Part shown: piece after piece, positions 5,016 through 56,153 of the stretch
Layout of the letters: every line of letters starts with the position of its first letter
How positions within the stretch are numbered: the stretch's first letter is position 1
Assembly (NCBI GenBank): GCA_038116985.1
Contig: JAYOEZ010000006.1
Location: 7,903 to 71,902, forward strand
From: Alphaproteobacteria bacterium
Lineage (GTDB): Bacteria > Pseudomonadota > Alphaproteobacteria > SHVP01
DNA: 64,000 nt
Direction: 5' to 3'
Translations under genes and position numbers: made by a program
The notes under the pieces: model-generated
What the model was told of the DNA's origin: nothing
What the model saw: the letters and a program-made list of their open reading frames with translations, nothing else
Database searches by the model: none

Positions 5016-5117
5016 ACTACGTCGATGACGCGCGACTCTGGCAGAACCAGCCACAGCACAAGACGCGAACGCCGCGTCGAGCGTGGTGGCCGCAATACGT
5101 CGACGAGGCCGACCGAC

Positions 5118-17802: not shown

Positions 17803-18519
17803 ATGGCAGGCTCTGAAACAATGGCACTGGAAGGGCAGATCGGTGGCGACGCCATCGTCGTCGACATGGCCACGGCGCTCGGCAGCGAGATATACGCCGA
17901 CCGGCCCCGCCTGATGCGGCTCCTTGTGCAGGCGCTGCATCACATTGCCGAGAACGAACATCAACTGAACCAGAAGGACGAGATCATCGCCGAGCTCAAG
18001 TCGCAGGCGATGACGGATCCGCTGACCGGGCTGGCCAATCGCCGCGCCTTCGAGGAACAGGTACGCCGCGCCATCGCCGGAGCCAGCCGTTTCGACGAGG
18101 CTGGCGTGCTCGCCTACATTGACCTGGACGGCTTCAAGCCGATCAACGACGGAATGGGCCACGACGCCGGCGACGCCGTGCTCATCTACGTTGCCGAGTT
18201 CCTTCGCAACAGCGTCCGCCAGACCGACACTGTGGCTCGCATCGGCGGCGACGAGTTCGCGGTCCTGATGGTGCAAACGACACCAGAAGAAGGCGAGCGA
18301 CGAGCCCGCACGTTGCAACTGCTGCTCAACGCTTCACATCTGACATTCGACGGGCGCTTGATTTCCATCTCGGCGAGCATGGGCGTTGCGCCATTCACCG
18401 CGGGTGCCGACCCTCGCAACGTCATGCGCATTGCGGACGCGGCGATGTACGCCGACAAGGGGCGGCGGCGCCTAGAGTCGGAATGGACTAAGAACGGCAG
18501 GAAGGCGTTAGCCAGCTAG
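17803..18519 (+). CDS. diguanylate cyclase (stand-alone GGDEF domain protein)
   Basis: Seen: RIGGDEFAV active-site motif, an RxxD-like region, and no obvious sensor domain. Confidence 0.85.
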   Translation: MAGSETMALEGQIGGDAIVVDMATALGSEIYADRPRLMRLLVQALHHIAENEHQLNQKDEIIAELKSQAMTDPLTGLANRRAFEEQVRRAIAGASRFDEAGVLAYIDLDGFKPINDGMGHDAGDAVLIYVAEFLRNSVRQTDTVARIGGDEFAVLMVQTTPEEGERRARTLQLLLNASHLTFDGRLISISASMGVAPFTAGADPRNVMRIADAAMYADKGRRRLESEWTKNGRKALAS

Positions 18520-18542
18520 CCGCAAAGTGGCTACCTCTCTCG

Positions 18543-18573
18543 AAACCCCTGGGCCTCGCCCCAGGGGTTTTTT
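18543..18573. terminator. rho-independent terminator between the convergent GGDEF and adenylate cyclase genes
   Basis: Seen: AAA, stem CCCCTGGG, loop CCTCGC, stem CCCAGGGG, then TTTTTT. The T-tract serves the + strand GGDEF gene, and the hairpin abuts the cyclase stop. Confidence 0.65.
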
Positions 18574-19655
18574 CATTCCGCCTCCGGCCGCACCAAGGTG
18601 TAGAGCTCTTCCGGTTGACGCACACCGCGGAGCGCATAGCGTCCGAGGGACACCAGCCGATCCTGGCAACCGGTCGCCGCCTTGGCGAAGGCCGATGACA
18701 GGACGACGTCGCGTTCCAGCGGCCGGCACATGGCTTCGATCCGGCTAACCTTGTTGACCGCAGGCCCGACAACCGTGAAGTCCAGCCGATCCGTCGAACC
18801 GATATTCCCGTACTCGACATCGCCAAGATGGATCGCAATATAGAAGTCCGTCGTCACCTTGCCTTCAGACTCCCGCTTCGCGCTCACCTCGGAAAGGCGC
18901 CGACGGACTTCCTCAATGGTGTCGAGCGCATTCCGGCAGATCCGAGACGTGTCCTCATCGTCGAGCTTGAAGATCGCCATAAGGCCGTCGCCCATGAACT
19001 TGAGAACTTCACCCCCCGCCTCGTGAATAGGGGTCACCATGGTGTCAAAGTAGTCGTTGAGCATGCCGATCAGTTCGTCAGGTGGGGTCGATTCGCCGAT
19101 CTTGGTGAACCCCTGCATATCGCAGTACCAGAGCACCGCCGAGATCGTCTGGACCGATCCGCGCTCGATTTCTCCCGAGAGCACCCGACGGCCGGCGTCC
19201 TTGCCGAGATAAACCTCAAGCAGTGTTCGCGCCATGCGATGATTGCGCGCGCTCTTGATGGCGAGGCCGAGCGCGCGGACAATTCGCGGCAGGTTCTCGA
19301 GCTGCCACTCGCTGTACCCGCCCGGACTGTCGATGGTCCAGGACGACAGCATCCCCTCCTGCTCTACCAGCGGCACGTTGCCGTCGAAGTTGGTGTCCTT
19401 GAACCCGGTAGCGTAGAGGATGTAGTCGGTTGCGCCCTTTTCGCGCAGCTCGTCGATGATCGGGTAGGGTCCCGGCTCGTTGGCGCCCTCGATTCGGCAG
19501 CGCCAAACATCGAGGTTGTTCCGGAACAGATGACCGAACGGGCCATTATCGATCCCGTCGGTCATATCTCCGGTCTGGCGCACCCATTCGTCCTGTTCAG
19601 CGCCCTCGCCACGCACGCAGCGGGCCCATACCGGCGTAGACCGGGTGCAGCACAC
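18573..19655 (-). CDS. class III adenylate/guanylate cyclase (CHD catalytic domain); the N-terminal region appears to continue in another frame (frameshift)
   Basis: Seen: CHD motifs FTKIGESTPPDELIGMLNDYF, KFMGDGLMAIF, HLGDVEYGNIGS, VGPAVNKVSRIE. Confidence 0.75.
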   Translation of the reverse strand: MCCTRSTPVWARCVRGEGAEQDEWVRQTGDMTDGIDNGPFGHLFRNNLDVWRCRIEGANEPGPYPIIDELREKGATDYILYATGFKDTNFDGNVPLVEQEGMLSSWTIDSPGGYSEWQLENLPRIVRALGLAIKSARNHRMARTLLEVYLGKDAGRRVLSGEIERGSVQTISAVLWYCDMQGFTKIGESTPPDELIGMLNDYFDTMVTPIHEAGGEVLKFMGDGLMAIFKLDDEDTSRICRNALDTIEEVRRRLSEVSAKRESEGKVTTDFYIAIHLGDVEYGNIGSTDRLDFTVVGPAVNKVSRIEAMCRPLERDVVLSSAFAKAATGCQDRLVSLGRYALRGVRQPEELYTLVRPEAE

Positions 19656-26506: not shown

Positions 26507-27226
26507 TCAGGTGCCGACCTGCTGGAACCTGCCGTCTTCAAAGAGGAACTGGAATAGCACGTTGGTCACGCCGCCCCGGGCGCGGTCAGGGTTTTCCGCC
26601 AGCATCGGGCTGTAGGCGCGGCCGTACCCGGTGGCGGAATCGGCCTCGACGGTTCGCTGGACCCGCATCGGAACGCCTGTGGGATCATTGGCCAACAGCA
26701 CATCCCGGAAAGGCAGGGCTTCCAGCACGTCCCGCGGCCCCGTGAAGGCGCGGGCACGAAACGCGCCGTCAACACAGGAAAGAACCACCCAGAAGTAGGA
26801 GTCGGACCTGAGATAGACCGGCGCGGCGCCGTGGTACGGCCCAGACTGATCCAGGGACCGGCGGAATTCTGCGAATCCTTCCTGAGACAGGCGGATCTGG
26901 CCCTCGCGGCCGAGCAGGCCTTCGATGGCTGAGGGAAACGCACGGTCAGACATGATGCTGCCGCGGAACACCCGGCCATAGACAAGGGCGCCCTCGGCGT
27001 CGGCGGCGATGTCATAAGTGCGCACCTGGACCGTAAACTCGCCATTAAACACAACGCGGTAGCGTTCGACCGGCGAGGTTGCGCAAACACGGCGGAATTC
27101 CACGCCGGAGACGTAGTTGAACCAGGTAAGCCGCCGGCCGATGACGCCATCGCCGGCGTCGATTGTGCAGGATGTCGCCAGCAGCGCCGCGACCACCAGG
27201 AGCGACAGGGATCGTCCTAGATTCAC
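26507..27226 (-). CDS. hypothetical secreted protein / probable lipoprotein
   Basis: Seen: N-terminal LSLLVVAALLATSC (lipobox-like) and no recognisable domain. GTG 27226 follows GGAGA at a suitable distance. Confidence 0.45.
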   Translation of the reverse strand: MNLGRSLSLLVVAALLATSCTIDAGDGVIGRRLTWFNYVSGVEFRRVCATSPVERYRVVFNGEFTVQVRTYDIAADAEGALVYGRVFRGSIMSDRAFPSAIEGLLGREGQIRLSQEGFAEFRRSLDQSGPYHGAAPVYLRSDSYFWVVLSCVDGAFRARAFTGPRDVLEALPFRDVLLANDPTGVPMRVQRTVEADSATGYGRAYSPMLAENPDRARGGVTNVLFQFLFEDGRFQQVGT

Positions 27227-27330
27227 TATCAAGAATCTCCGTCAACTAGTTGAAATATATGATAGACACCCGTCCTTACCCTGCCCTATCATCGCTCCCC
27301 GGGGTCGGCTCGCAAGAGCCGTAAACGACG

Positions 27331-28608: not shown

Positions 28609-28636
28609 GGCCGCGGATGCGCGGCCTCCCTATAAT
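28609..28636 (+). promoter_or_regulatory. small hairpin followed by a perfect TATAAT -10 box upstream of the methyltransferase pair
   Basis: Seen: GGCCGCG-GATG-CGCGGCC hairpin at 28609-28626, then TATAAT at 28631-28636. No clear -35. Confidence 0.3.
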
Positions 28637-28698: not shown

Positions 28699-29865
28699 AT
28701 GCCTTCACCGACACCTTTCGAGCGGATGCAGCGTCACGGCGCAATCGTCGCTTCGAATCATGACGAACTCGCCATGGAAAACTTCGCGCAGGCAATGCAC
28801 TTCGAAGTCTTCGGACACCTCATGCCGGGCAACAAGGAAGTTTACAACGCCAGGGTTCTTCCCAAGTTCAGGAAGCGGGAGGGCCGGACGCCGACGAACC
28901 GGCGCGAGGTTCGCGCCGAGATGCGCGAGGACCCCTACCATCAGACGTGGAGCGCGCTGCGCCGCACGACCCAGGAAATGATGTGGGTTGCGACCGACAC
29001 CTGTCTGAACCGGACCTACGACGAACTCCATCGCCGCGCACAGCCGCCGCGGAAACAGCTCGGCTCGCTGGAACTCGATTCTTCTCTCGACCTGCCCCGC
29101 TACATCACCGAAGTCGATATCCACTGCATGCCGGGCGGGTATTGCAGCGAAGCGCTGCCCGACGACGTTTACGCCGGCGCCCTGTACGACCGCGGCGTCT
29201 ATTCGATCACTCAGGGATTTCTAGGGCCCAAGGTCGATGGCTTCGGACGGTCCGCATCGGCCTATATCAAACGCAACTATCCCGACTTCCGAAAAGGTAA
29301 GATCCTCGACGTCGGCTGTGCCGTTGGACACGGTTCGGTCGCGATTGCCGAGGCATTTCCCGATGCTGAAGTGCATGCCATCGACGTCGGCGCACCGATG
29401 GTCCGCTATGCCCACGCGCGCGCCGAAAGCATGGGCGTGCCCGTTCATTTCTCGCAGCAGAGCGCCGAGGCGATGCGCTACGACGACGACACTTTCGACT
29501 TCGTCGTTTCTGGGGCGACCCTGCACGAACTCTCTACGGCCGGGATCAAGAACATCATCCGAGAGTGCCATCGGGTCCTCAAACCCGGCGGAATCATGAT
29601 CCACATCGAGCAGCCCCAGTACCACGACATGGACCCCTACGATCAATTCATGAGGGATTGGGATACCTTCGGCAACAACGAGCCCTTCTGGGGCACGCTG
29701 CACGACCTCGACCTAGAAAAGCTAGCGGTCGCGGCCGGATTCGAACGGCAAAAGGTGCGCCAGACGCGCGAATGGGGCGACGAGGAGCGCGGCCAGGTCT
29801 ACAACGTGGACAAGCCGGGCGAGAAAGCCGAGCCGCCGTGGTTCTTCTACACGGCAACGAAGTAG
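28699..29865 (+). CDS. two-domain SAM-dependent methyltransferase, paralog 1 (conserved N-domain of unknown function plus a class I MTase)
   Basis: Seen: SAM motif I KILDVGCAVGHG. Conserved blocks shared with the two paralogs: WSALRRTTQEMMW, LELDSSLDLPRYITEVDIHCMPGGY, APMVRYAHARAES, VHFSQQSAE, LHELS, NNEPFWGTLHDLD. ATG 28699 follows GGAG at 6 nt. Confidence 0.8.
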   Translation: MPSPTPFERMQRHGAIVASNHDELAMENFAQAMHFEVFGHLMPGNKEVYNARVLPKFRKREGRTPTNRREVRAEMREDPYHQTWSALRRTTQEMMWVATDTCLNRTYDELHRRAQPPRKQLGSLELDSSLDLPRYITEVDIHCMPGGYCSEALPDDVYAGALYDRGVYSITQGFLGPKVDGFGRSASAYIKRNYPDFRKGKILDVGCAVGHGSVAIAEAFPDAEVHAIDVGAPMVRYAHARAESMGVPVHFSQQSAEAMRYDDDTFDFVVSGATLHELSTAGIKNIIRECHRVLKPGGIMIHIEQPQYHDMDPYDQFMRDWDTFGNNEPFWGTLHDLDLEKLAVAAGFERQKVRQTREWGDEERGQVYNVDKPGEKAEPPWFFYTATK

Positions 29866-29872
29866 GCCCAAC

Positions 29873-31051
29873 GTGAAGCCCGTCGGGTTCCGCCACATCG
29901 GTCAACATGGCGTTCTCGCGCCGACCGAGCACGACGAGGCCTCGCGCGAGGACTTCATCGCCTCGATGTACTTCGCCGTCCAGGCGGACGTGTTTCCTGG
30001 AAATAGGGTCGCGTGGGACAGTCGAGTGCGCCCGGCCTTTGTCCGGGAAACAGGCCGGGAACCGCAGGACCGTCATGAAATCCGCCGCGCCATGGCGGCT
30101 GAGCCGATGTTCCAGTGGTGGAGCAGCCTTCGTCGGACCACCCAGGAGATGAAGCAGGCGACCGGCGAGGAATTCGTGCATCGTCAAACCGGTCCGATCA
30201 ACGACACCGTGGCCCGCCTAAACCGGAACGGGCGCGGCACGCTGAGACTCGATCCCGACCTCGCCATTCCACGTTACGTCGGAAAGGTCGACTTTCACGG
30301 TCAGCCCGGCGGCTATCTCGCGGAGCGCTGCGACAATGACGTGTCGCCCGCGGCGATCTACGACCCCGGGGTATTCGTGCTGACCAAGGGCTTCATGGGC
30401 CCCTATTGCGAGGCGGCGGGCGCATCGGCCATCCATTTCCTGAAGAGCCGGTTTCCCACGTTCTCGCCGGGCCGGATTCTCGACATGGGGTGCGCCGTTG
30501 GGCACAGCACGTTGCCCTACGCCGACGCCTATCCCGATGCACATATCGACGCCATCGATCTCTCCGCACCGATGCTGCGCTACGCCCATGCGCGGGCGAC
30601 TTCGCTCGGTTACGCGCTGCACTTCTCCCAGCAGAATGCCGAGCACACGGACTTCGCGGATGAGTCGTTCGACCTCGTCGTCTCGCACATCGTTCTGCAC
30701 GAGACCTCGCGAAGCGCACTCATCAACATTGTGAACGAATGCCATCGCCTGCTGCGCCCCGGCGGACTGATGCTGCACGTCGAACAACGCCAGCACGAGG
30801 ACATGGAGGCGTTCGAGCAGTTCTATTACGACTGGGACACGCTCAATAACAACGAACCGTTCTGGGGAACGCTGCACGACATGGATCTTATCAAGGTCGC
30901 CCGCGACGCAGGATTCGACCAATCGCGCGTGATCCACGAAATGGTGCCGAACCTGGTCGCCGCCGACATGCTCAAAGGAGTGATCGACGACGGGAAAGAC
31001 TTCAAGCGAACCGCGGTGTGGTTCGCCTTTGGCGCCAGAAAGAGCAGCTAG
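29873..31051 (+). CDS. two-domain SAM-dependent methyltransferase, paralog 2 (tandem with paralog 1)
   Basis: Seen: GTG 7 nt after the paralog-1 stop. ILDMGCAVGHS, LRLDPDLAIPRYVGKVDFHGQPGGY, VLHETS, NNEPFWGTLHDMD. The stop TAG shares a CTAG palindrome with the stop of the convergent pgm gene. Confidence 0.8.
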   Translation: MKPVGFRHIGQHGVLAPTEHDEASREDFIASMYFAVQADVFPGNRVAWDSRVRPAFVRETGREPQDRHEIRRAMAAEPMFQWWSSLRRTTQEMKQATGEEFVHRQTGPINDTVARLNRNGRGTLRLDPDLAIPRYVGKVDFHGQPGGYLAERCDNDVSPAAIYDPGVFVLTKGFMGPYCEAAGASAIHFLKSRFPTFSPGRILDMGCAVGHSTLPYADAYPDAHIDAIDLSAPMLRYAHARATSLGYALHFSQQNAEHTDFADESFDLVVSHIVLHETSRSALINIVNECHRLLRPGGLMLHVEQRQHEDMEAFEQFYYDWDTLNNNEPFWGTLHDMDLIKVARDAGFDQSRVIHEMVPNLVAADMLKGVIDDGKDFKRTAVWFAFGARKSS

Positions 31052-32427
31052 ATCGAGGGCGGCGCAATGCCGCTCTGCTCAAGCTGATCAAGAAGCTGCG
31101 CCTTGAGGGATTCCAGTCCGGCCTGATCCCGCGCCTCAACCCTGGCAACGAGAACCGCCTGGGTATTGGATGCCCGCAGAAGCCACCAACCTTCGGGGTT
31201 TGTGACGCGGACCCCGTCGATGTCGACGACATCGGCGCCCGAGACCTTCATTCGTTGCGCGATCTCCTGGGCAACCGCGAACTTGCGATCCTCGTCGCAG
31301 TCGAAGCGCAGTTCAGGCGTGTTGACGAAAACAGGAAGTTCATCGAGGAGCGCACCCAATGAGCGGCCGGACCGCTTGAGCAGTTGCAGGGTGCGGACGG
31401 CGGCATACGGACCGTCATCGAAACCGTAGTAGTCGTCGGCAAAAAAAATGTGCGCGCTCATTTCCCCGGCCAACAGCGCGCCCGTCTCCGCCATCTTGGA
31501 CTTAACGAGCGAGTGACCGGCAGCCCACATGATGGGCTTACCGCCGAGCCGCGCGACTTCGTCAAAGAGCGCGACACTGCACTTGACGTCGCCAATGATC
31601 GTCGCCCCCGGATGCCCGGCCAGCACGTCGCGGGCCAGCAATGCAAGCAGCTGATCGCCCCAGAGGATGCGGCCTTTCTCGTCGATGACGCCGATACGAT
31701 CCCCGTCCCCGTCAAAGCCGATGCCGAGATCCGCTCCGCAGTCCTTTGCCGCGGCCTGTAGCTGAACGAGGTTTTCAGGGATCGTCGGGTCCGGGTGATG
31801 GTTCGGGAAGCTGCCGTCGACATCGTCGTTGATGAGAACGTGCGTGCCTGGTAGCCGCTGGGTCAGGTCGCCAAGGATCGCCCCGACGGCCCCGTTGCCG
31901 GGATCCCAAGCGACCGTGATCTGCTCGGGCAGGTCCGCGCCCGCGACCAGTCGCGAGACGTAGGCGTCGCGGACGTCGGCCGTGATCTGCTTGCCCGTCC
32001 CTGTCTCGTAGTCGCCCGTCGCCGCAAGACGGCCGAGCTCCTGAATATCGTCGCCGAAGAAACCCTTGCGGCCCAGCATGAACTTGAAGCCGTTGAAGTC
32101 AGGCGGGTTATGCGAGCCCGTGATCATGATGCCGCCGTCGGCGGCGCTGTCATGAACGCTGAAATAGAGCATCGGAGTCGGTCCCAGGCCGACGATCCGC
32201 GCATCGATCCCTGCAGCGTTCAATCCGTCGATGAGATGGTTCGCCAGTTCCGGCGAGCTGTGGCGCCCGTCCCATCCGACATTGACGGTCCGGCCGCCGC
32301 CACGTCGAACGATGGTGCCGAAGGCGCGGCCCACGGCCTCGGCATCCGCGTTACCGAGAGTCTCACCGAGCGTTCCCCGAATGTCGTAGGCCCGCAGGAT
32401 CGACGGATGGAAAGCGTGTGCCGTCAT
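31048..32427 (-). CDS. phosphomannomutase/phosphoglucomutase (alpha-D-phosphohexomutase)
   Basis: Seen: active-site region TGSHNPPDFNGFK, metal-binding DGDGDR and sugar-binding GEMSAH. The ATG at 32427 overlaps the ugd stop. Confidence 0.9.
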   Translation of the reverse strand: MTAHAFHPSILRAYDIRGTLGETLGNADAEAVGRAFGTIVRRGGGRTVNVGWDGRHSSPELANHLIDGLNAAGIDARIVGLGPTPMLYFSVHDSAADGGIMITGSHNPPDFNGFKFMLGRKGFFGDDIQELGRLAATGDYETGTGKQITADVRDAYVSRLVAGADLPEQITVAWDPGNGAVGAILGDLTQRLPGTHVLINDDVDGSFPNHHPDPTIPENLVQLQAAAKDCGADLGIGFDGDGDRIGVIDEKGRILWGDQLLALLARDVLAGHPGATIIGDVKCSVALFDEVARLGGKPIMWAAGHSLVKSKMAETGALLAGEMSAHIFFADDYYGFDDGPYAAVRTLQLLKRSGRSLGALLDELPVFVNTPELRFDCDEDRKFAVAQEIAQRMKVSGADVVDIDGVRVTNPEGWWLLRASNTQAVLVARVEARDQAGLESLKAQLLDQLEQSGIAPPSI

Positions 32428-33752
32428 CTGCCGGGAGTTGCCGTCCTGCGGCCAACGCTCACGTAGGTGAAGCCCTGGCTCGCCGCTTCCGACGGCTCGT
32501 AGAGGTTGCGGAAATCCACCATAACCGGCGTGGCCATTGCAGACTTCAGCGCAACCAGATCGAGAACGCCCGGCTTGAAGTCGCTCCACTCGGTGGCGAT
32601 GGCCACGGCGTGCGCACCTTGAGCTGCCTCGAGTGGCGTTGCGCACCACACAACATCAGGAAGTTGGTCCCTGGCATGCGCCGCTCCCTGGGGATCGAAC
32701 GCCCGCACGGTAGCCCCCGCCGACAGTAAGCCGTTGGCGAGATCGATCGCCGGACTATCGCGCACGTCGTCCGTATTGGCCTTGAAGGTAATGCCGAGGA
32801 GGGCGATGGTCTTGCCCTCGACCGAGCCGTCCAATGCCGCCGCAACGCGCGCCGCGAGCGACTCCTTGCGGGCACCGTTCACCGCGATCGCGGTCTCCAC
32901 CATGCGCGTCGGCGTCCCTACCTTGGTCGCCGTGTGCGCCAGCGCGAGCGTGTCCTTTGGAAAACACGATCCACCGTAACCCGGACCGGCACTCAGGCCC
33001 CAACGCCCGATACGCGCGTCGAGGCCCATGCCGCGGGCAACCTCTTCGACGTCCGCGCCCACCCGTTCGCATAGATCGGCGATCTCGTTGATGAAGGTGA
33101 TCTTTACGGCCAGAAAAGCGTTGGCGCTGTATTTGATCAACTCGGCAGTTTCCAAGCCCGTCGCAACGAACCGTTCCGGTGGGTTCGCCAACAGCGGCTC
33201 ATGCAGGGTCCTAAGGACCGCGGCTGCGCGTGCGGTATCCGTCCCCGCCACGGTGCGATCGGGTTGTTGAAAGTCCTGCACAGCGCTGCCTTCGCGCAGA
33301 AACTCCGGTACCGAGGCTATGTCAAAGTCCGCATCCGGCGCGGTCTCACGAATGATCTGCTGCACCTCACGACCGGTCCCCACCGGAACGGTCGACTTGG
33401 TCACAACGACGGTATACCCGCGCAGCGAAGGCGCGATCTCGCGCGCCGCTTCACGGACGTAACGCAGGTCGGCCTCGCCGCCCTCTCCCGGCGGCGTTCC
33501 TACCGCCATGACGACGACATCTGCTGCCTGGACTGCGTCGGCCGGATCGACGGCGAATGAAAGGCGTCGAGCAGATACCGCGCGCGCGACGACTTCCTCC
33601 AGCCCGGGTTCATAGATCGGAATCTCACCGCGCTTGAGCCGGTCAACGATCTCGGGCTTCTTGTCGATACACGTGACCTCGTGACCGATGTCTGCATAGC
33701 AGGCGCCCGATACCAAACCGACATAACCGGTTCCGATGACTACAACCTTCAC
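32424..33752 (-). CDS. ugd: UDP-glucose 6-dehydrogenase
   Basis: Seen: MKVVVIGTGYVGLVSGACYA NAD-binding N-terminus and the catalytic GGSCFPKD. Confidence 0.92.
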   Translation of the reverse strand: MKVVVIGTGYVGLVSGACYADIGHEVTCIDKKPEIVDRLKRGEIPIYEPGLEEVVARAVSARRLSFAVDPADAVQAADVVVMAVGTPPGEGGEADLRYVREAAREIAPSLRGYTVVVTKSTVPVGTGREVQQIIRETAPDADFDIASVPEFLREGSAVQDFQQPDRTVAGTDTARAAAVLRTLHEPLLANPPERFVATGLETAELIKYSANAFLAVKITFINEIADLCERVGADVEEVARGMGLDARIGRWGLSAGPGYGGSCFPKDTLALAHTATKVGTPTRMVETAIAVNGARKESLAARVAAALDGSVEGKTIALLGITFKANTDDVRDSPAIDLANGLLSAGATVRAFDPQGAAHARDQLPDVVWCATPLEAAQGAHAVAIATEWSDFKPGVLDLVALKSAMATPVMVDFRNLYEPSEAASQGFTYVSVGRRTATPGR

Positions 33753-34633
33753 GACGCTTCCCCGAGGTGGAGGCCGCCGATGTACGCCTTCAGATCGTCT
33801 CGCAGGTCTTCGCGTTGCAGACCGAAAGCGATGTTCGCTCTCAGATATCCGCTCCTGCTGCCGCAGTCGAAACGCTCACCGTCGATTCGAATGCCGGCGA
33901 AAGGCTCCTGGCTGGCGAGCCAAGACAGCGCGTCGGTCAGCTGAATCTCGCCACCGGCGCCCTTCTCCTTCCGGTCGAGATAGTCGAAGACCCTCGGCGT
34001 CATGATGTAGCGCCCGACCACCGCGAGATTGGAAGGCGCATCCGCGGGCTTCGGCTTTTCGACAAGCCCCCGGACGGGAACGACCTTGCCGCCATCGTCT
34101 TTCTCGACGTCGAGCACACCATAGTTGGAGATATCCGGCCCCGCGATCGTCTCCGCCGCGACCATGCCGCCCTCGCCGGCATAGGCGTCGACCATCTGCT
34201 TGAGGCAAGGCACGCCGGCCAGAAAGATGTCGTCGGGCAGGAGGACCGCGAAGGGCTCGTCGCCGACGAAGCTTCGGGCGCACCAAACCGCGTGCCCCAA
34301 CCCAAGCGGTTCCATCTGGCGCGTATATGCGACGCGGCCCGGCGCCGGCAGCCAGGCGCGCAGGCTCTCCAACGCCTCAAGCTTGCCCCTCGACTGCAGC
34401 AGCGATTCCAACTCGCTCGAGTGATCGAAGTGATCCTCGATCGCACTCTTGCCTTTGCCGGTCACGAAGATGAACTCCTCGATTCCGGCCGCCCGGGCCT
34501 CTTCCACGGCATAGTGGATCAGCGGCTTGTCCACGATCGGCAGCATTTCCTTTGGCAACGCTTTTGTCGCAGGAAGAAAACGCGTACCAAGGCCGCCGAC
34601 GGGAAAGACGGCCTTTCGTACCGTTCGTTGCAT
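33749..34633 (-). CDS. galU: UTP--glucose-1-phosphate uridylyltransferase
   Basis: Seen: KAVFPVGGLGTRFLPATKALPKEMLPIVDKPLI. Confidence 0.92.
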   Translation of the reverse strand: MQRTVRKAVFPVGGLGTRFLPATKALPKEMLPIVDKPLIHYAVEEARAAGIEEFIFVTGKGKSAIEDHFDHSSELESLLQSRGKLEALESLRAWLPAPGRVAYTRQMEPLGLGHAVWCARSFVGDEPFAVLLPDDIFLAGVPCLKQMVDAYAGEGGMVAAETIAGPDISNYGVLDVEKDDGGKVVPVRGLVEKPKPADAPSNLAVVGRYIMTPRVFDYLDRKEKGAGGEIQLTDALSWLASQEPFAGIRIDGERFDCGSRSGYLRANIAFGLQREDLRDDLKAYIGGLHLGEAS

Positions 34634-49549: not shown

Positions 49550-50719
49550 ATGAGGGGACAAGCTCTGCACGGCATTCTGCCGGACGAGACGCACGACGAA
49601 ATGTCGCGTCAGGACTTTGTGACCAGCTTCAAGGTGCACGTCCTCACGCAGCTTTCTGGCGGCAACAAGACCGCCTTCTTAACCAGCGCAGTGCCCCGTT
49701 TCCGGCGCAAGACGGGACACGAACCAGAGAATGCCCGCGAGGTCGCGCAGGCGATGCGGGACGAACCGTTTTGGCAGACCTGGAGCTCGCTCAACCGCTC
49801 GGGCCAGGAGTTGATGTGGGAAGCGCTCGGCGAGCGCACCGGGCGCCAACTCGACGACCTCAACAGCAAGGCGCGCGAGGTGGCCCAGCGCACGAAGAAG
49901 AAGGGCACGTTGCGTCTGAACCCCAAGCTTGAGACGCCGCGCTACAACAGCGAGATTCACATCCACTGCCAGCCGGGCGGCTATCACTCGGAGCTCACCA
50001 GCGACGATGTGTTTGCCGGCGCGCTGTATGACGTGGGTGCCTATCAGTACGGCATGGGAGGCCAGGGCCCGTGGACGGACGACGTCGGCCTGACGGTCGG
50101 CCACGTCCTCAACGAACGGTTTCCCGATTTCAAACCGAAGCGCATCCTCGACTTGGGTTGCGGCGTCGGGCATCAGACGCTCGGCCTGGCGGAGGCCTTT
50201 CCGGACGCCGAAATCCATGCCTGCGATCTTGGGGCGCCGATGGTTCGGTATGCGCACGCGCGTGCGGAATCAGTCGGCAAGGCCGTTCACTTCTCACAGC
50301 AGAACGCCGAGCACACCGACTTTCCCGACGGGAGCTTCGATCTCGTGACCTCGATGATTTTGTTTCACGAGACCTCGACGAAGGCGATCCCCAACATCAT
50401 CAACGAAAGCTTCCGCCTACTGCGGCCGGGCGGGTTGATGGTTCACGGCGACGTGCCGGAGTTCAACAAGTTCTGGCCCGAACCCTACGACCGCTTCCAG
50501 CGCGACTGGACCACGCATTTCAACGCCGAACCCTTCCGCAGCAAGATGCGGGAAATGGACATGGGCGACATTGCGAAGAAGGCGGGGTTCAAGGCTTCGA
50601 CGATCAGCGAGGAACTCGTGCCGAGCGTCTTCGGCCAGTCCGGCTATTCCAACACGTCGCTCTACGGAAAGACCCATGCCTACGGGATGAAGTGGTGGGT
50701 CCTCCTGGCGCAGAAATAG
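49550..50719 (+). CDS. two-domain SAM-dependent methyltransferase, paralog 3
   Basis: Seen: ILDLGCGVGHQT, LRLNPKLETPRYNSEIHIHCQPGGY, APMVRYAHARAESVG, VHFSQQNAEHTDF, FHETS. ATG 49550 verified. Confidence 0.8.
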   Translation: MRGQALHGILPDETHDEMSRQDFVTSFKVHVLTQLSGGNKTAFLTSAVPRFRRKTGHEPENAREVAQAMRDEPFWQTWSSLNRSGQELMWEALGERTGRQLDDLNSKAREVAQRTKKKGTLRLNPKLETPRYNSEIHIHCQPGGYHSELTSDDVFAGALYDVGAYQYGMGGQGPWTDDVGLTVGHVLNERFPDFKPKRILDLGCGVGHQTLGLAEAFPDAEIHACDLGAPMVRYAHARAESVGKAVHFSQQNAEHTDFPDGSFDLVTSMILFHETSTKAIPNIINESFRLLRPGGLMVHGDVPEFNKFWPEPYDRFQRDWTTHFNAEPFRSKMREMDMGDIAKKAGFKASTISEELVPSVFGQSGYSNTSLYGKTHAYGMKWWVLLAQK

Positions 50720-50739
50720 TCCACCAACGCGACATCGCC

Positions 50740-51594
50740 ATGAAGATCAATCCGGTTTCGCCCGTCATGGGCGCAGAGATTCTTGATCTCGACCTCGCCG
50801 AGCCCATCGACGACACAGCGTTCGAGGAGATTCACAAGGCCTTCCTTGAGCACATTGTGCTGGTGTTTCGCGACCAGACCCTGACGCCGGCCCAACACGT
50901 GGCCTTCAGCCGACGTTTCGGCGACCTCATGGTTCACGTAAAGGCCGAGTACCTGCTGCCGGACCAGCCCGAGGTGCTCATCCTATCGAACAAGAAGCAC
51001 CCCGACGGTCGCCCCATGGGCTTCGAGGATGCCGGGCGCTATTGGCATTCGGACATGTCCTACGTCGAGGAACCGCCGTTGGGTTCACTGCTGTACGCGG
51101 TTGAGATTCCACCCGCCGAGGGCGACACCCTGTTTGCCAACATGTACCTCGCGTATGACGCATTGCCCGACGAAACCAGGCAGCGGCTGGAAGGCCTCAC
51201 GGCGGCGCATTCGTACCTCGCCAGCTTCGAAGGCAAGACCAAGATCGGCTCGGGCCGCGACACGTTGACGGACGAACAGAAGGCGCAACTGCGCGAAGTG
51301 ATTCATCCCGTCGTACGGACCCACCCCGAGACGGGCCGCAAGGCGCTCTATGTGAATCCAGGCTTCACGGTGCGAATCGAGGGGCTGCCGGATGACGACG
51401 CGGCGTCACTGTTGGACGATCTGATCGAACATGCCTCGCGGCCACAATTCCAGTACCGCCACGCGTGGCGGCCCCACGACCTTGTGTTCTGGGACAACCG
51501 CTGCGCCATGCACCACGCGACGCTGTATGACCGGCAGTACGCACGGCATATGCACAGGACAACGGTGAAAGGCGACCGTCCTTTCGCCGCCTAG
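50740..51594 (+). CDS. TauD/TfdA-family Fe(II)/2-oxoglutarate-dependent dioxygenase
   Basis: Seen: HSD metal triad region WHSDMSYVEEPP with a later H, and an R near the C-terminus. 284 aa from ATG 50740, 21 nt after paralog 3. Confidence 0.85.
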   Translation: MKINPVSPVMGAEILDLDLAEPIDDTAFEEIHKAFLEHIVLVFRDQTLTPAQHVAFSRRFGDLMVHVKAEYLLPDQPEVLILSNKKHPDGRPMGFEDAGRYWHSDMSYVEEPPLGSLLYAVEIPPAEGDTLFANMYLAYDALPDETRQRLEGLTAAHSYLASFEGKTKIGSGRDTLTDEQKAQLREVIHPVVRTHPETGRKALYVNPGFTVRIEGLPDDDAASLLDDLIEHASRPQFQYRHAWRPHDLVFWDNRCAMHHATLYDRQYARHMHRTTVKGDRPFAA

Positions 51595-53528
51595 AGCCGG
51601 TCCACCAACCGCATCGCGTCGTCGGTCGCCGCCCAGAAGGTGCGCGGCGCCAGACAATCGCCAATCGCCAGCGTCGCTTCCGGGAAGTCCCGCGGCACCG
51701 TTCCGGTGGACAACACAATATCGTCGAACGGTCCAAGGCTTCCCCCGGAAGCAAGTTCGGCTTGCCCGTTGCGCAGCCGCGTGACGGTCGCACCGGGCAC
51801 AACGACAATTCCGGCTGCGGCCATGCGCGCCATCACCTCCGCCGCCTCGACGGTGAAGGCCAGTTCGGGTAGGGCGGGGTGCTGTCCGGGCGTCGCGACC
51901 GTCACCGTGTCGACGCCATCACCTTGCGCCAGTGTTTCGGCCAGCGAGATCGTCGGCCAACCGCCCTCCTCGTCAATGACCAGAATCTTGCCGCGCACCT
52001 GGGCCTGACCGAGCAGGACCGCGCGACCGTGGACGCAGGATTCGGTGCCAGGAATACCGTCAAGCAGATGCGGCCGCCGACGCCATACGGCGCTTTGCGC
52101 GGGCGCGCCACCGGTAGCCCAGATCACGGTGTCGGCTGACGGCGGTTCCGCCGGGTCGATCTCGCGGCCGCATTCCACCGTCACGCCGAGATCGGCGAGC
52201 GCGCGTTCCCACCAGTCGATCCCTGCGAGCAACGGACCACGATGCGGCGCTTCGCCAGCAAGCCGCAGATCGCCGCCGAGGCGCGCCCGAGATTCGTAGA
52301 GCCGGACCGTGTGGCCCCGCGCTGCAGCGCGGCGCGCCGCTTCGAGCCCAGCCGGCCCGCCGCCGACGACAGCAACCGTCCCTCGCTGGGCGGTTCGCTT
52401 GGGGCGGGCGAATTCGCGCCCGGCGCGCGGATTCACGACGCACGTCGCGGGGCCGATGCTGCGCTGGGCGAACGTGCAGGCCTGGTTGCACGAGATGCAC
52501 GGCCTGATCGCAGCCTCCCGATTCTGTTCGATCTTCGCCAGCCAATCGGCATCAGCGATCCAGGTGCGCGCCATCGCGACGATGTCGGCGTCGCCCGACG
52601 CCAGGACGTCTTCGACCTCGCCCGGCGTGCGCATGCTGCCGGCGACCATCACCGGCACACCCAGCGTTTTCCGGAACCGCGATGCCGCCTGGCGCAAGTG
52701 CGCCGGGGCCGCAGTCATCGTCGGCATCAGGTCGGCGAGCGCAAAGTGCGATCCGGTAATCAGACTGACGTAGTCGACCAGTCCCTTGTCGACAAGAACC
52801 TTCATGGCGGCGAGCGAATCGGCCTCGCCATAACCTTCGGCGTAGGCCGGGACGTTGTGCGCCAGCGAGGTGCGCACCGCGACCACCATGTCGCCACCGG
52901 CCGCCTCGCGCACCGCAGTCACGACACGCAGGATGAGCCGCATGCGGTTCTCCAGCGACCCGCCATATTCGTCGGTGCGCCGGTTGAAGACGGGATTGAG
53001 AAAGGATCCCAGTAGATAGTCGGACGAGGTCTGAACCTCCACCGCATCCAGGCCCGCCGCGCGGCACCGCGCCGCCGCCTGGGAATAGGCCTCGACGAGT
53101 TCATCGATGTCCGCATGTGACATCGCCTTGGGCAACTCCGCGAATTGAGCTGAGGGCACCGGCGACGGCGCCCACACCGGGCCGGCGCCGAGATGGGTCA
53201 TGTTGTGCCCGGCGTGCCACAGGATCACCGAGAGGCAGGATCCCTGGTCGTGCACGGCGGCGGACAGCGCTCGCAGGCCTGGAACGACGGCATCGTCGAA
53301 CAGGTGCGGCCTAACGCCCTTGATCGAGGACGGATGCACGGGCGATGATTCCAGCCCCACCATCGCTGCTCCGCCCCTGGCCCGTTCGACCATGTAGGCA
53401 TGTAGGCGGTCCCCCACCCCGCCCCGGCCGTCGCCCAGCCCCATGTGGTGGCCGCTCATGACGACCCGGTTTCTGAGGGTGATCGACCCTATGTCCAGCG
53501 GCCGGAAGATATGCGGATAGTCGGTCAT
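51591..53528 (-). CDS. OYE-family Fe-S flavoprotein oxidoreductase (dimethylglycine demethylase DgcA / trimethylamine dehydrogenase / 2,4-dienoyl-CoA reductase type)
   Basis: Seen: N-terminal FMN/TIM-barrel region, 4Fe-4S motif CISCNQAC...C, and a C-terminal FAD/NAD Rossmann (VAVVGGGPAGLEAARRAAARGHTV). 645 aa from ATG 53528. Confidence 0.85.
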   Translation of the reverse strand: MTDYPHIFRPLDIGSITLRNRVVMSGHHMGLGDGRGGVGDRLHAYMVERARGGAAMVGLESSPVHPSSIKGVRPHLFDDAVVPGLRALSAAVHDQGSCLSVILWHAGHNMTHLGAGPVWAPSPVPSAQFAELPKAMSHADIDELVEAYSQAAARCRAAGLDAVEVQTSSDYLLGSFLNPVFNRRTDEYGGSLENRMRLILRVVTAVREAAGGDMVVAVRTSLAHNVPAYAEGYGEADSLAAMKVLVDKGLVDYVSLITGSHFALADLMPTMTAAPAHLRQAASRFRKTLGVPVMVAGSMRTPGEVEDVLASGDADIVAMARTWIADADWLAKIEQNREAAIRPCISCNQACTFAQRSIGPATCVVNPRAGREFARPKRTAQRGTVAVVGGGPAGLEAARRAAARGHTVRLYESRARLGGDLRLAGEAPHRGPLLAGIDWWERALADLGVTVECGREIDPAEPPSADTVIWATGGAPAQSAVWRRRPHLLDGIPGTESCVHGRAVLLGQAQVRGKILVIDEEGGWPTISLAETLAQGDGVDTVTVATPGQHPALPELAFTVEAAEVMARMAAAGIVVVPGATVTRLRNGQAELASGGSLGPFDDIVLSTGTVPRDFPEATLAIGDCLAPRTFWAATDDAMRLVDRL

Positions 53529-53596
53529 AGCGCCCCGTGGCAGGTGGTTCGGCGAATGGTATGGTTCGGGAAAGCGCAAAGGAAGGGGAGGACGCC

Positions 53597-55192: not shown

Positions 55193-55265
55193 GCGTCCGG
55201 CGGCGCCGGCCGCGGTCGGACTATCGGCGGGAGATCGCGCCATTTCACCGGTCCTGCGTGCTGCG

Positions 55266-56153
55266 TTGTGGATGATGGGGACACTCGTTTCCTTCTCCAT
55301 GGTCGGCATCGCGACGCGTCATCTGACGGATGCGGGCCTGCCGGTCCTGCAGGTCTTGCTGCTGCGCGCGTCGATCGGCCTGATCGTCTTGTCGCCGATC
55401 GTGTTGCTGCGCGGCTGGTCGACGGTGGCAACAGCGCAGTGGCGGCTACACGGCGTGCGCAACGTGCTGCACTACGGCGCCAGCTACGCTTGGTACTACG
55501 GGATCGCCGTCTTGCCGCTGGCCAACGTGTTCGCCATCGAGTTCACCGCGCCCATATGGGTCGCGCTCCTTGCCGTGCTGATCCTCGGGGAGAAGCTGGA
55601 TGTGGGCCGTGGCGTTTCAATCGGCCTCGGCGTGCTGGGCATGATGATCATCGTGCGGCCCGGCTTCGCCGCATTTTCGCTGGATTCGCTAGTCGTGCTG
55701 GGAAGCGCCCTGGGATTTGCCTGCGCGCACATCGCGACGAAGGGCCTGACGCGGACCAATACGGCGCTCAAGGTGCTGTTCTGGATGGCCGCGATGCAGT
55801 TTCCCATTGCGCTCGGCCCGGCATTGGCGGTGTGGACACCGATCGAGGGGTTCTCGTGGCTATGGGCGGCGGTGATGGGCGTCAGTGCGCTGAGTGCCCA
55901 TTTCTGCCTGACCAACGCGCTCAGTCTGGCCGACGCCAGCGTCGTCGTGCCCATGGACTTCCTGCGCATCCCGTTGATCGCGCTGGTCAGCCTGGTGGTG
56001 TTCGCCGAACCGATCGACATCTGGGTGCTGGTCGGCGCGGCGGTGATCTTTTCGGGCGTCTACTACAGCATCCGCCGCGAACACCGGCGCAGCGCCGCCG
56101 TGTCGGTGGCGACACCGCCTCTCGAGATCGTCGGGAGCGACAAGGAACCCTAG
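55266..56153 (+). CDS. EamA/DMT-family transporter (10 TM)
   Basis: Seen: two EamA half-domains. Paralogous to the gene at 61784. Confidence 0.8.
   Translation: MWMMGTLVSFSMVGIATRHLTDAGLPVLQVLLLRASIGLIVLSPIVLLRGWSTVATAQWRLHGVRNVLHYGASYAWYYGIAVLPLANVFAIEFTAPIWVALLAVLILGEKLDVGRGVSIGLGVLGMMIIVRPGFAAFSLDSLVVLGSALGFACAHIATKGLTRTNTALKVLFWMAAMQFPIALGPALAVWTPIEGFSWLWAAVMGVSALSAHFCLTNALSLADASVVVPMDFLRIPLIALVSLVVFAEPIDIWVLVGAAVIFSGVYYSIRREHRRSAAVSVATPPLEIVGSDKEP

What the first reader, a model, noticed from the sequence alone, without database searches (positions are those of the whole stretch)
28699..31051. Tandem pair (plus a third distant copy at 49550-50719) of an unusual two-domain SAM methyltransferase family
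Seen: three paralogs of about 390 aa sharing about 50-60% identity. Each has a conserved N-terminal domain of about 190 aa that I cannot place in a named family. It carries the blocks W(S/Q)xW(S)(A/S)L(R/N)R(T/S)(T/G)QE(M/L)MW and LRL(D/N)P(D/K)L(A/E)(I/T)PRY...(D/H)(F/I)H(G/C)(Q/M)PGGY. This domain is fused to a class I MTase that has an atypical motif I ILD(V/M/L)GC(A/G)VGH and shared blocks APMVRYAHARA, (V/L)HFSQQ(N/S)AE and NNEPFWGTLHD(L/M)D. Paralogs 1 and 2 are translationally coupled (7-nt spacer) and are preceded by a perfect TATAAT. Triplication of a substrate-unknown methyltransferase suggests iterative methylation, for example mono-, di- and tri-N-methylation of an amine, or modification of a polymer made by the adjacent galU-ugd-pgm operon. 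Neither has been tested.
Basis: partly seen in the sequence, partly recalled or inferred. Interest (0 to 1): 0.7.

Follow-up and report, generated by a model that had tools for sequence, protein, structure and literature searches.

The report
Three uncharacterised capped SAM methyltransferase paralogues

Summary
All three ORFs exist at the stated coordinates: MT1 28699-29865, MT2 29873-31051 and MT3 49550-50719. They are homologous over their full length but share only 42-46% identity, not 50-60%. Residues ~195-305 are a canonical class I SAM methyltransferase core. Residues 1-150 match nothing in Pfam, NCBIfam or the PDB, and fold as a long helical hairpin plus a conserved loop.

The family is large: at least 575 GTDB species and 760 clusters at 50% identity. 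Sources name it only 'class I SAM-dependent methyltransferase'. I found no paper on it.

In 70 of 86 loci the gene sits next to a conserved, unannotated protein of 90-125 aa ('c1'). HyuA/HyuB ATP-dependent hydrolase/carboxylase genes, an SDR and FAD oxidases are frequent neighbours. The window's three copies belong to alphaproteobacterial clades that lack c1.

MT1 and MT2 are an old tandem duplication under purifying selection. MT3 heads a conserved island: MT3-TauD, two FadH/OYE flavoproteins, an FAD-linked oxidase and an EamA transporter.

galU-ugd-pgm is convergent, so it is not co-transcribed. Iterative N-methylation has no specific support.

Best reading: active small-molecule methyltransferases working in redox metabolism, acceptor unknown.

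The parts
28699..29865 (+). MT1, 388 aa: N-terminal helical cap (res 1-150) plus class I SAM methyltransferase core
   Evidence: ORF; Methyltransf_25 at 83 bits, residues 202-298; AF2 pLDDT 86.9; orthologues at 85% identity in L004/L005 with dN/dS 0.05-0.07; GGAG Shine-Dalgarno 8-11 nt upstream
29873..31051 (+). MT2, 392 aa, GTG start: tandem paralogue of MT1
   Evidence: ORF; Methyltransf_25 at 79.5 bits; 44.4% identical to MT1; sister clade to MT1 in the tree; dN/dS 0.07-0.08; weak Shine-Dalgarno
29866..29872 (+). 7-nt spacer between the MT1 stop and the MT2 start (possible translational coupling)
   Evidence: Sequence. Other tandem loci also have a short gap: L001 and L002 have 17 nt by their gene calls, and L005 appears to have the same 7 nt, estimated from my own ORF and match coordinates.
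28631..28636 (+). TATAAT, candidate -10 element, 62 nt upstream of the MT1 ATG
   Evidence: The only TATAAT in the window; conserved in L005 and 5/6 in L004; no matching -35
28609..28626 (+). Conserved GC-rich hairpin GGCCGCG-GATG-CGCGGCC between the dacC-SPOR stop and the TATAAT
   Evidence: Sequence. The aligned segment in L004 and L005 also reads as an inverted repeat, with arm changes in L005 that keep it complementary (read by eye). It was not folded.
49550..50719 (+). MT3, 389 aa: third paralogue, from a separate subclade, with canonical GCGVG motif I
   Evidence: ORF; Methyltransf_25 at 82.4 bits; tree; orthologues at 75-85% identity with the same neighbours
50734..51594 (+). TauD/TfdA-family Fe(II)/2-oxoglutarate dioxygenase, 14 nt downstream of MT3 (probable MT3-TauD operon)
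   Evidence: PF02668 at 264.6 bits; TauD equivalog 259.8 bits against a cut-off of 313; same position in L090-L093
51591..53603 (-). FadH/OYE-type FMN + FAD/NAD two-domain flavoprotein (ORF of 670 aa; the true start is probably later)
   Evidence: PF00724 plus Pyr_redox_2; below cut-off for BaiCD and mycofactocin OYE models; homologues next to family methyltransferases in L041, L052, L055, L059 and L071
53537..55192 (+). FAD-linked oxidase (GlcD / D-2-hydroxyacid dehydrogenase-like; ORF of 551 aa)
   Evidence: PF01565 plus PF02913; PDB best hits are D-2-hydroxyacid/D-lactate dehydrogenases; 42% identical to the FAD-binding oxidoreductase in the pJE1 MT-c1-HyuAB cluster
55266..56153 (+). EamA-family transporter
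   Evidence: PF00892; conserved in L090-L093
56154..58115 (-). Second FadH/OYE-type flavoprotein, 653 aa
   Evidence: PF00724 at 243 bits; PDB best hits are naphthoyl-CoA reductase, FadH and TMADH; conserved in L090-L093

Best explanation
MT1, MT2 and MT3 are three diverged, functional paralogues of one widespread but uncharacterised bacterial family of class I SAM-dependent methyltransferases.

Shown. Each protein has a canonical Rossmann-type SAM-binding core: motif I ILDxGC(A/G)VGH, an acidic residue at the end of strand 2 (AIDxxAPM), and motif FSQQ(N/S)AE. In front of it lies a family-specific cap of about 150 residues. The cap is an antiparallel hairpin of two long helices (residues 21-61 and 79-105) followed by the conserved loop LxLDPxLxxPRY...D(I/F)H(C/G)xPGGY. 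The cap is found only at the N-terminus of these methyltransferases.

Inferred. All three proteins bind SAM and transfer its methyl group to a small, polar, probably anionic metabolite held between the cap and the core. The invariant His-Glu pair just after strand 4 (H276/E277 in MT1) is proposed to act as general base or metal/substrate ligand. Whether an O (carboxylate or hydroxyl), N, S or C atom is methylated cannot be decided. I weakly favour O-methylation of an organic acid.

Gene organisation. MT1 and MT2 are an old tandem duplication. They are probably co-transcribed from a promoter upstream of MT1 and possibly translationally coupled. MT3 is the first gene of a probable MT3-TauD bicistron inside a conserved island of redox enzymes (two FadH/OYE flavoproteins and a GlcD-like FAD oxidase) plus an EamA transporter.

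Family-wide, the usual state is a single copy next to a small conserved helical protein (c1), often beside HyuA/HyuB, an SDR and FAD oxidases. The window's lineage has lost the adjacent c1 and multiplied the methyltransferase.

For: All three copies look active. They keep every one of the 51 invariant columns of a 32-sequence family alignment. 69 columns are at least 90% conserved in both c1-linked and c1-less members. dN/dS is 0.05-0.08.

Catalytic pair. H276/E277 aligns with His-His of BelI, shown to be the Ca-binding His122-His123 of the HHD motif (PMC11408123). It also aligns with the ILH histidine of plant PEAMT.

Small-molecule redox context. c1 is adjacent in 70/86 loci; HyuA occurs in 32, HyuB in 29, an SDR in 21 and a luciferase-like oxidoreductase in 19. 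Sphingomonas pJE1 and Novosphingobium humi combine MT, c1, two FAD oxidoreductases, Zn-ADH, HyuA/HyuB, succinate-semialdehyde dehydrogenase, an alpha/beta hydrolase, MFS and TonB transporters and a GntR regulator. The MT3 island is conserved in L090-L093. MT plus OYE-FAD pairs recur in L041, L052, L055, L059 and L071.

Tandem history. The tree places MT1 and MT2 orthologues as sister clades, and the locus is syntenic in L001, L002, L004 and L005.

Weak lead to carboxyl O-methylation. The best single-sequence PDB hits are LahSB and BelI. BioC is second-best in NCBIfam.
Against: No substrate, product or SAM binding was observed; everything beyond 'class I methyltransferase fold' is inference.

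The nearest characterised relatives are chemically mixed. By family profile the best PDB hits are plant PEAMT N-methyltransferases. Similarity is limited to about 100 core residues at 20-30% identity.

The window's copies lack c1, HyuAB and the SDR, so family-wide context transfers only in part.

Conservation of the MT3 island is shown only among fairly close relatives (75-85% identity), where synteny may simply reflect relatedness.

In cyanobacteria the MT-c1 pair stands among unrelated housekeeping genes. That fits a self-contained function, for example protein methylation, as well as it fits a metabolic one.

I had no model coordinates, so the placement of H276/E277 and the cap residues around the SAM methyl group is not verified.
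Confidence: 0.55

Rival explanations
1. Protein methyltransferases. The ancestral job of the family would be to methylate, or to work as an obligate complex with, the adjacent small protein c1. c1 has an invariant AKGxRP N-terminal tail followed by a coiled-coil-like helix. The c1-less copies in the window would then act on c1 encoded elsewhere or on other proteins.
Against: There is no c1 in the 64 kb window, even at E<=100, nor beside any MT1, MT2 or MT3 orthologue. Even so, 69 family-conserved columns are retained in the c1-less copies. The family is frequently embedded in enzyme and transporter clusters. Whether the MT-c1 complex forms could not be tested.
Confidence: 0.15
2. One reading: the three paralogues carry out successive N-methylations of one amine (mono, di, tri), as in betaine or phosphocholine synthesis.
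Against: Most genomes carry one copy. MT3 lies 18.5 kb from the tandem pair in a different, independently conserved island. The paralogues are 42-46% identical and fall in separate old clades. No betaine or choline transporter or amine-metabolism gene is adjacent. PEAMT similarity is limited to the generic core.
Confidence: 0.08
3. One reading: MT1 and MT2 methylate a sugar or polysaccharide made through the neighbouring galU-ugd-pgm genes.
For: The adjacency is conserved in L001, L002, L004 and L005, and a pgm homologue lies directly downstream of the methyltransferase in L006 and L008. One unrelated locus (L085) has a UDP-glucose dehydrogenase gene divergent from the methyltransferase. Sugar O-methyltransferases (RebM, a D-glucose O-methyltransferase) are among the PDB hits.
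Against: galU-ugd-pgm is on the opposite strand and convergent with MT2, so there is no shared transcript. No glycosyltransferase, polymerase or exporter is in the neighbourhood. The association is absent from the other ~75 loci. galU, ugd and pgm are housekeeping nucleotide-sugar genes.
Confidence: 0.05
4. A SAM-binding fold used for something other than methyl transfer (SAM-dependent lyase, cyclase or decarboxylase, or a catalytically dead regulatory or scaffold protein).
For: Non-methylating class I methyltransferase-fold enzymes are known (general knowledge). Motif I deviates slightly (GCAVG) in MT1 and MT2.
Against: All SAM-contact motifs are conserved, and MT3 and many homologues have the canonical GxGxG. 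Purifying selection acts on the whole length. There is no positive evidence for other chemistry.
Confidence: 0.05

Closest known systems
Generic class I (Rossmann-fold) SAM-dependent small-molecule methyltransferases, Pfam Methyltransf_25/11 (UbiE/BioC/Tam-like clan)
   Different: An extra conserved N-terminal cap of about 150 residues with no Pfam, NCBIfam or PDB counterpart. Family-specific invariant residues. A conserved small partner gene in most lineages. No NCBIfam equivalog reaches its cut-off; the best is CpaM at 66.6 bits against 180.
BelI/CysG (3-alkylmalate carboxyl O-methyltransferases of belactosin/cystargolide biosynthesis; PDB 9FCE/9FCD; PMC11408123) and LahSB (RiPP C-terminal carboxyl methyltransferase; 6UAK)
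   Different: The pair is His-Glu rather than His-His, and the third ligand (Asp191) could not be aligned. BelI/CysG are about 230 aa without the long helical cap. Identity is only 22-25% over the core. The genomic context differs, with no beta-lactone or RiPP genes.
Phosphoethanolamine N-methyltransferases (plant PMT1/2, Plasmodium PMT)
   Same: Best PDB hits with the family profile (65 bits). The family His aligns with the PEAMT ILH histidine, which from memory is the catalytic His132 of the Plasmodium enzyme.
   Different: Similarity covers only about 105 core residues. PEAMT's N-terminal Tyr and C-terminal phosphobase-binding lid are not matched. No phospholipid or choline genes are nearby.
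N-terminal-domain-plus-methyltransferase architectures such as Rv2258c, RedM, TnmJ, DsyB (wHTH/dimerisation domain plus methyltransferase)
   Same: Overall two-part layout of similar length. They are the top Foldseek hits by full-length alignment.
   Different: RMSD is 15-20 A and TM is 0.41-0.44, so only the cores superpose. Their N-domains are winged-helix dimerisation modules (Pfam Dimerisation/Methyltransf_2), which do not match here.

Membership tests
Class I SAM-dependent methyltransferase superfamily | Rossmann-like alpha/beta fold with a seven-stranded sheet | tested here: met
Class I SAM-dependent methyltransferase superfamily | Motif I (GxGxG-like) and an acidic residue at the end of strand 2 for SAM binding | tested here: met
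   ILDVGCAVGH, ILDMGCAVGH and ILDLGCGVGH; AID/ACD followed by xxAPM; invariant in 32 homologues. Methyltransf_25 scores 79-83 bits against a cut-off of 27.
Class I SAM-dependent methyltransferase superfamily | Demonstrated SAM binding and methyl transfer | not testable with these tools
   Needs biochemistry.
UbiE/MenG (COQ5) quinone C-methyltransferases (the JGI auto-annotation of homologues) | Full-length match to the equivalog/subfamily model | tested here: not met
   TIGR01934 scores 45-51 bits against a cut-off of 158; PRK00216 models score 31-43 bits against 216-378. Pfam PF01209 matches only profile positions 45-170 of 233.
Cyclopropane-fatty-acyl-phospholipid / mycolic acid synthases (CMAS, PF02353) | Match across the 273-position CMAS profile above the gathering score | tested here: not met
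   Scores are 18.5, 32.3 and 26.1 bits against a cut-off of 27. Only profile positions 64-178 match, meaning the shared Rossmann core, and this is overlapped by much stronger generic families.
rRNA/tRNA methyltransferases (GidB, Rsm22, FtsJ, RsmC) and sterol methyltransferases | Family model above cut-off | tested here: not met
   GidB scores 13.7 against 27, Rsm22 12.9-18.5 against 23 and FtsJ 13.7-15 against 24. There is no Sterol_MT_C hit.
BelI/CysG-type metal-dependent carboxyl O-methyltransferases | His-His-Asp (HHD) Ca2+-binding motif (PMC11408123) | tested here: inconclusive
   The His-His position is occupied by the invariant His-Glu pair (alignment). The Asp191 equivalent lies outside the aligned region. 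Candidates D320, D322 and D338 are conserved but not mapped.
Phosphoethanolamine N-methyltransferases | Catalytic Tyr-His dyad and phosphobase-binding lid residues | tested here: inconclusive
   The His aligns. The N-terminal Tyr and the lid residues lie outside the aligned 198-302 segment.
MADS defence system protein mad2 (PADLOC) | Full-length match and co-occurrence with the other mad genes | tested here: not met
   Scores are 63-68 bits, only to profile positions 279-418 of 492, i.e. the methyltransferase core. No other defence genes are nearby.
The unnamed family itself (cap + methyltransferase, about 385 aa) | N-terminal cap with H13, D22-E23, Q82, R89, Q92-E93, P133-x-Y135, H142, P145-G146-x-Y148, plus core R236-Y237, Q253, E257, H276-E277, D320-W321 and N326-x-E328-P329-F330 | tested here: met
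   All three window proteins carry every invariant column of alignment A2.
The unnamed family itself (cap + methyltransferase, about 385 aa) | Adjacent c1 gene (typical of the family, in 70/86 loci) | tested here: not met
   No c1 anywhere in the window (best E 0.5). It is also absent beside MT1, MT2 and MT3 orthologues.

The most novel reading that the evidence does not exclude
The family and its small partner c1 would form a previously undescribed two-component methylation module, conserved from cyanobacteria to Binatia and Proteobacteria. The methyltransferase carries a new type of helical substrate cap. c1 would be an obligate activator or methyl acceptor. The module would be repeatedly recruited into ATP-dependent HyuAB-type carboxylase/lactamase and flavin-dependent pathways, for example to methyl-esterify a labile organic-acid intermediate as a transient protecting group. 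The lineage of this window would have dispensed with c1, expanded the enzyme to at least three copies, and possibly replaced c1 with a second methyltransferase subunit (an MT1-MT2 heteromer).
Probability: 0.2. Interest if true: 0.55.

Novelty: new variant of a known kind. Interest (0 to 1): 0.38.

Why it matters
SAM methyltransferases are among the commonest 'known fold, unknown function' proteins, so one more is not surprising in itself. This family stands out in four ways:
- It is large and phylogenetically broad, with at least 575 species representatives.
- It has a conserved cap with no structural or sequence precedent.
- It has a near-universal, entirely unannotated small partner protein.
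- It recurs next to HyuA/HyuB and flavoenzymes on sphingomonad catabolic megaplasmids, in 3-5 copies each.

Finding the acceptor would annotate thousands of genes. It could also reveal a methylation step in a catabolic or detoxification route, where SAM use is unusual because of its cost. Cultured carriers exist, so the question can be tested directly: Novosphingobium humi, Sphingomonas sp. JE1, Methylonatrum kenyense and Nostoc punctiforme.

Tried and rejected
- Named families. Pfam and NCBIfam scans of all three proteins hit only generic methyltransferase core models; UbiE, BioC, CFA synthase, ArsM, Tam and rRNA methyltransferase models are either below cut-off or match the shared core only.
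- The afdb50 fold library was unavailable.
- Riboswitch or leader RNA upstream of MT1 or MT3: no Rfam hit.
- Sigma-70 promoter scan: no -35/-10 pair.
- c1 in the window: none, even with filters off at E<=100.
- c1 identity: no Pfam, NCBIfam, PADLOC or PDB match, and sources call it 'hypothetical protein'.
- Defence-system membership: only a core-level match to mad2.
- Literature: six searches on the gene combination, Binatia, pJE1 and Novosphingobium found nothing on this family.
- Exact look-up of MT3 to name the source record failed. An identical protein, P0322, exists on a 72 kb NCBI contig.
- Corrected error. I first concluded that the TauD adjacency was unique to the window. This was wrong: closer MT3 orthologues keep it.
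- The tuberculostearate-like pairing 'methyltransferase plus FAD reductase' was considered and dropped. The FAD oxidase is present in only about 8 loci, and the methyltransferase is not CMAS-type.
Full report
**1. Observation**

The three ORFs are present as described: MT1 28699-29865 (388 aa), MT2 29873-31051 (392 aa, GTG start) and MT3 49550-50719 (389 aa). They align over their whole length.

It is 44.4% for MT1/MT2, 42.4% for MT1/MT3 and 45.8% for MT2/MT3. The first 190 residues are 39-41% identical and the rest 45-50%.

The quoted motifs are there, with one exception. NNEPFWGTLHD(L/M)D is shared only by MT1 and MT2; MT3 reads NAEPFRSKMREMD.

The 7-nt gap between the MT1 stop and the MT2 start is real. 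So is TATAAT at 28631-28636. That hexamer is the only one in the 64 kb window, and it is conserved in L005 and 5/6 in L004. A consensus scan found no -35/-10 pair.

MT1 has a GGAG Shine-Dalgarno sequence, MT3 has GGGGGA, and MT2 has only a weak one. This fits coupling of MT2 to MT1.

GC3 is 77-83%. dN/dS is 0.05-0.08 against orthologues at 73-85% identity, although dS is saturated. These are real, constrained genes.

**2. What the proteins are**

Pfam places only residues ~195-305, in Methyltransf_25/11/31/12. NCBIfam has no model that reaches its cut-off; the best are CpaM at 59-67 bits against 180 and BioC at 52-60 against 185.

PDB sequence searches match only the core. This holds for the single protein and for the family profile. 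The hits are LahSB, BelI/CysG, RebM and the phosphoethanolamine N-methyltransferases.

An AlphaFold model built on 32 homologues (pLDDT 86.9, pTM 0.89) shows a normal seven-stranded methyltransferase core from about residue 155. In front of it are two long helices (21-61 and 79-105), two short helices, and a conserved, mostly non-helical segment at 115-155.

A profile of the cap alone was searched against 1.84 billion representative proteins. It finds 760 clusters (448 at E<=1e-10). The cap is always at the N-terminus. Full-length hits are about 370-410 aa. The many shorter hits (121-300 aa) I take to be gene fragments. No other architecture appeared.

So 'two-domain' is best restated as a class I methyltransferase with a family-specific helical cap of about 150 residues. 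It is not a mobile domain.

**3. Size and spread of the family**

A scan of GTDB species representatives found at least 575 encoding loci. They come from Binatia, Nostocales and other cyanobacteria, Gamma- and Alphaproteobacteria, Thermodesulfobacteriota and Myxococcota. Sources name the protein only 'class I SAM-dependent methyltransferase' or give a UbiE-type auto-annotation.

Cultured carriers include:
- Methylonatrum kenyense and several Nostoc, Scytonema and Tolypothrix strains;
- sphingomonads, whose megaplasmids hold 3-5 copies each.

Six literature searches found no paper on the family.

**4. Genomic context across the family**

I called ORFs in 84-90 loci, clustered them, and built HMMs of the recurrent neighbours.

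The dominant partner is a protein of 90-125 aa that I call c1. Its consensus is m..kAKGkRP.ff.dPq.Dk...MaLaGEVsVLreRLDt.ERl. It lies within a few to ~290 nt of the methyltransferase in 70 of 86 loci, in every phylum sampled. c1 has no Pfam, NCBIfam, PADLOC or PDB match, and sources call it 'hypothetical'.

Next most frequent, within 6 kb, are:
- HyuA (32 loci) and HyuB (29), which are caprolactamase/acetophenone-carboxylase-like but below cut-off;
- an SDR (21);
- an F420/luciferase-like oxidoreductase (19);
- an MFS transporter (11);
- FadH/OYE two-domain flavoproteins (6).

On Sphingomonas sp. JE1 plasmid pJE1 these partners come together in one annotated cluster. Upstream are GntR, a TonB receptor, MFS transporters, an alpha/beta hydrolase, an ADH, PrpD/MmgE, an SDR and a HapK-like gene. 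Then follow MT, c1, an FAD-dependent oxidoreductase, an FAD-binding oxidoreductase, Zn-ADH, HyuA, HyuB and succinate-semialdehyde dehydrogenase. Most of these genes recur around the methyltransferase in Novosphingobium humi; in the 25 kb fetched there the stretch ends after Zn-ADH, so HyuA/HyuB and SSADH were not seen.

The pJE1 FAD-binding oxidoreductase is 42% identical to the window's 551-aa FAD-linked oxidase.

**5. The window's copies in that framework**

A neighbour-joining tree of 96 family members puts MT1 orthologues and MT2 orthologues in two sister clades found only in a group of uncultured Alphaproteobacteria. None of them has c1.

The locus dacC-SPOR / MT1 / MT2 / (convergent) pgm-ugd-galU is syntenic in L001, L002, L004 and L005. 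Some relatives keep only one of the two copies at the same site: L006 has the MT1 type, and L046 and L008 have the MT2 type.

MT3 belongs to another c1-less clade. Orthologues at 75-85% identity retain the whole island: MT3-TauD, an OYE-FAD gene on the minus strand, the FAD-linked oxidase, EamA, and a second OYE-FAD gene on the minus strand. The island sits next to the leucine-catabolism (MCCase) genes.

More distant members also sit beside OYE-FAD genes (L041, L052, L055, L059, L071) or the FAD oxidase (L041, L049, L055, L069).

No c1 is detectable anywhere in the window.

All three window proteins keep the 51 invariant columns of the family alignment. 69 columns are at least 90% conserved in both c1-linked and c1-less members, and only 11 columns distinguish the two groups. 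The chemistry is therefore probably the same in all copies.

**6. Mechanism, and how far it is supported**

Shown: the fold, the SAM-binding motifs, conservation and purifying selection.

Inferred: methyl transfer to a small polar acceptor bound between the cap and the core.

The invariant His-Glu pair after strand 4 (H276/E277) aligns with the His-His of BelI. In BelI/CysG this is the Ca2+-binding His122-His123 of an HHD motif that positions a carboxylate for O-methylation (PMC11408123). The same histidine aligns with the ILH histidine of plant PEAMT. From memory, that corresponds to the catalytic His132 of the Plasmodium enzyme.

Several invariant arginines (R89, R236, R241, R292) suggest an anionic substrate, but this is only a hint.

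The nearest characterised relatives are chemically mixed: carboxyl O-methyltransferases (LahSB, BelI/CysG, BioC), an N-methyltransferase (PEAMT) and a sugar O-methyltransferase (RebM). The atom methylated cannot be called.

I weakly favour methyl-esterification or O-methylation of an organic acid. My reasons are the single-sequence hits, and a context rich in enzymes for hydroxy, keto and carboxylic acids: a GlcD-like oxidase, the SDR, PrpD, SSADH and HyuAB. The alpha/beta hydrolases in several clusters could later remove such an ester. This is a hypothesis, not a finding.

**7.

Polysaccharide modification. galU (33749-34633), ugd (32424-33752) and pgm (31048-about 32427) are a tight operon on the minus strand that converges on MT2. 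The MT2 and pgm stop codons overlap at 31048-31051. There is no shared transcript and no glycosyltransferase or export gene nearby. The adjacency is clade-specific, with one unrelated ugd neighbour in L085.

Iterative N-methylation. It draws only generic support from the PEAMT similarity. It is weakened by the single-copy state of most genomes, by the separate conserved contexts of MT1/MT2 and MT3, and by the absence of amine or betaine genes.

**8. Verdict**

This is a real and correctly delimited observation of an uncharacterised methyltransferase family. It is a new variant of a very well-known kind of enzyme.

The most interesting element, the near-universal partner c1, is absent from this window.

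Interest is moderate (0.38). The family is a good target for function discovery, but nothing here contradicts expectation or opens a long-standing question.

Noticed in passing
Related loci, e.g. L003:11174-11506, L069:11193-11519, L086:13200-13559; absent from the window: A conserved 90-125 aa protein ('c1') with an invariant AKGxRP N-terminal tail and a GEVSVLRERLDTxERL helix sits next to the methyltransferase in 70/86 loci across at least 6 phyla. It has no match in Pfam, NCBIfam, PADLOC or the PDB.
   Followed up: partly
window 50734-58115: A six-gene island: MT3-TauD, two FadH/OYE Fe-S-type flavoproteins, a GlcD-like FAD oxidase and an EamA transporter. It is conserved in L090-L093 next to the leucine-catabolism (MCCase alpha/beta, DsbA-like x2, thiolase) genes. 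Substrate unknown.
   Followed up: partly
L086 (Sphingomonas sp. JE1 plasmid pJE1, 21508-46590) and L088 (Novosphingobium humi): A sphingomonad plasmid cluster joins MT and c1 with two FAD oxidoreductases, Zn-ADH, HyuA/HyuB, SSADH, PrpD/MmgE, a HapK-like protein, an SDR, an alpha/beta hydrolase, MFS and TonB transporters and GntR. Novosphingobium megaplasmids carry 3-5 family copies each.
   Followed up: partly
window 28609-28626: A GC-rich hairpin (GGCCGCG GATG CGCGGCC) lies 9 nt after the dacC-SPOR stop and 4 nt before the TATAAT. By eye, the aligned segment in L004 and L005 keeps an inverted repeat, with arm changes in L005 that stay complementary. It has no U-tract, so it is either a terminator remnant or a regulatory element.
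   Followed up: partly
window 31048-31051: The convergent MT2 (+) and pgm (-) genes overlap at their stop codons, with no intergenic terminator. This leaves room for transcriptional interference between the methyltransferase pair and the galU-ugd-pgm operon.
   Followed up: no
window 5025-6197 (+): An unrelated 390-aa protein combines N-terminal TPR repeats with a C-terminal Methyltransf_11/25 domain. This is a fourth, different SAM methyltransferase in the window.
   Followed up: no
window 26507-27232 (-): A 241-aa ORF between clpS and dacC-SPOR has no Pfam hit. It clusters with an ORF at the same position in L005, and L001 and L002 have a no-Pfam 244-aa gene at that position.
   Followed up: no
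window 31048-32649 (-) and 51591-53603 (-): The mechanical ORFs for pgm (533 aa) and the first OYE-FAD protein (670 aa) are longer than their orthologues (455 and 647 aa). The pgm ORF overlaps ugd, and the OYE-FAD ORF overlaps the ORF of the divergent FAD-linked oxidase. The real starts are probably later; for pgm, the MTAHAFHPS... start lies near 32427.
   Followed up: partly
window 17803-19655: A GGDEF diguanylate cyclase (+) and an adenylate/guanylate cyclase-domain protein (-) lie next to each other, beside an EipB-like protein gene. Unrelated to the finding.
   Followed up: no
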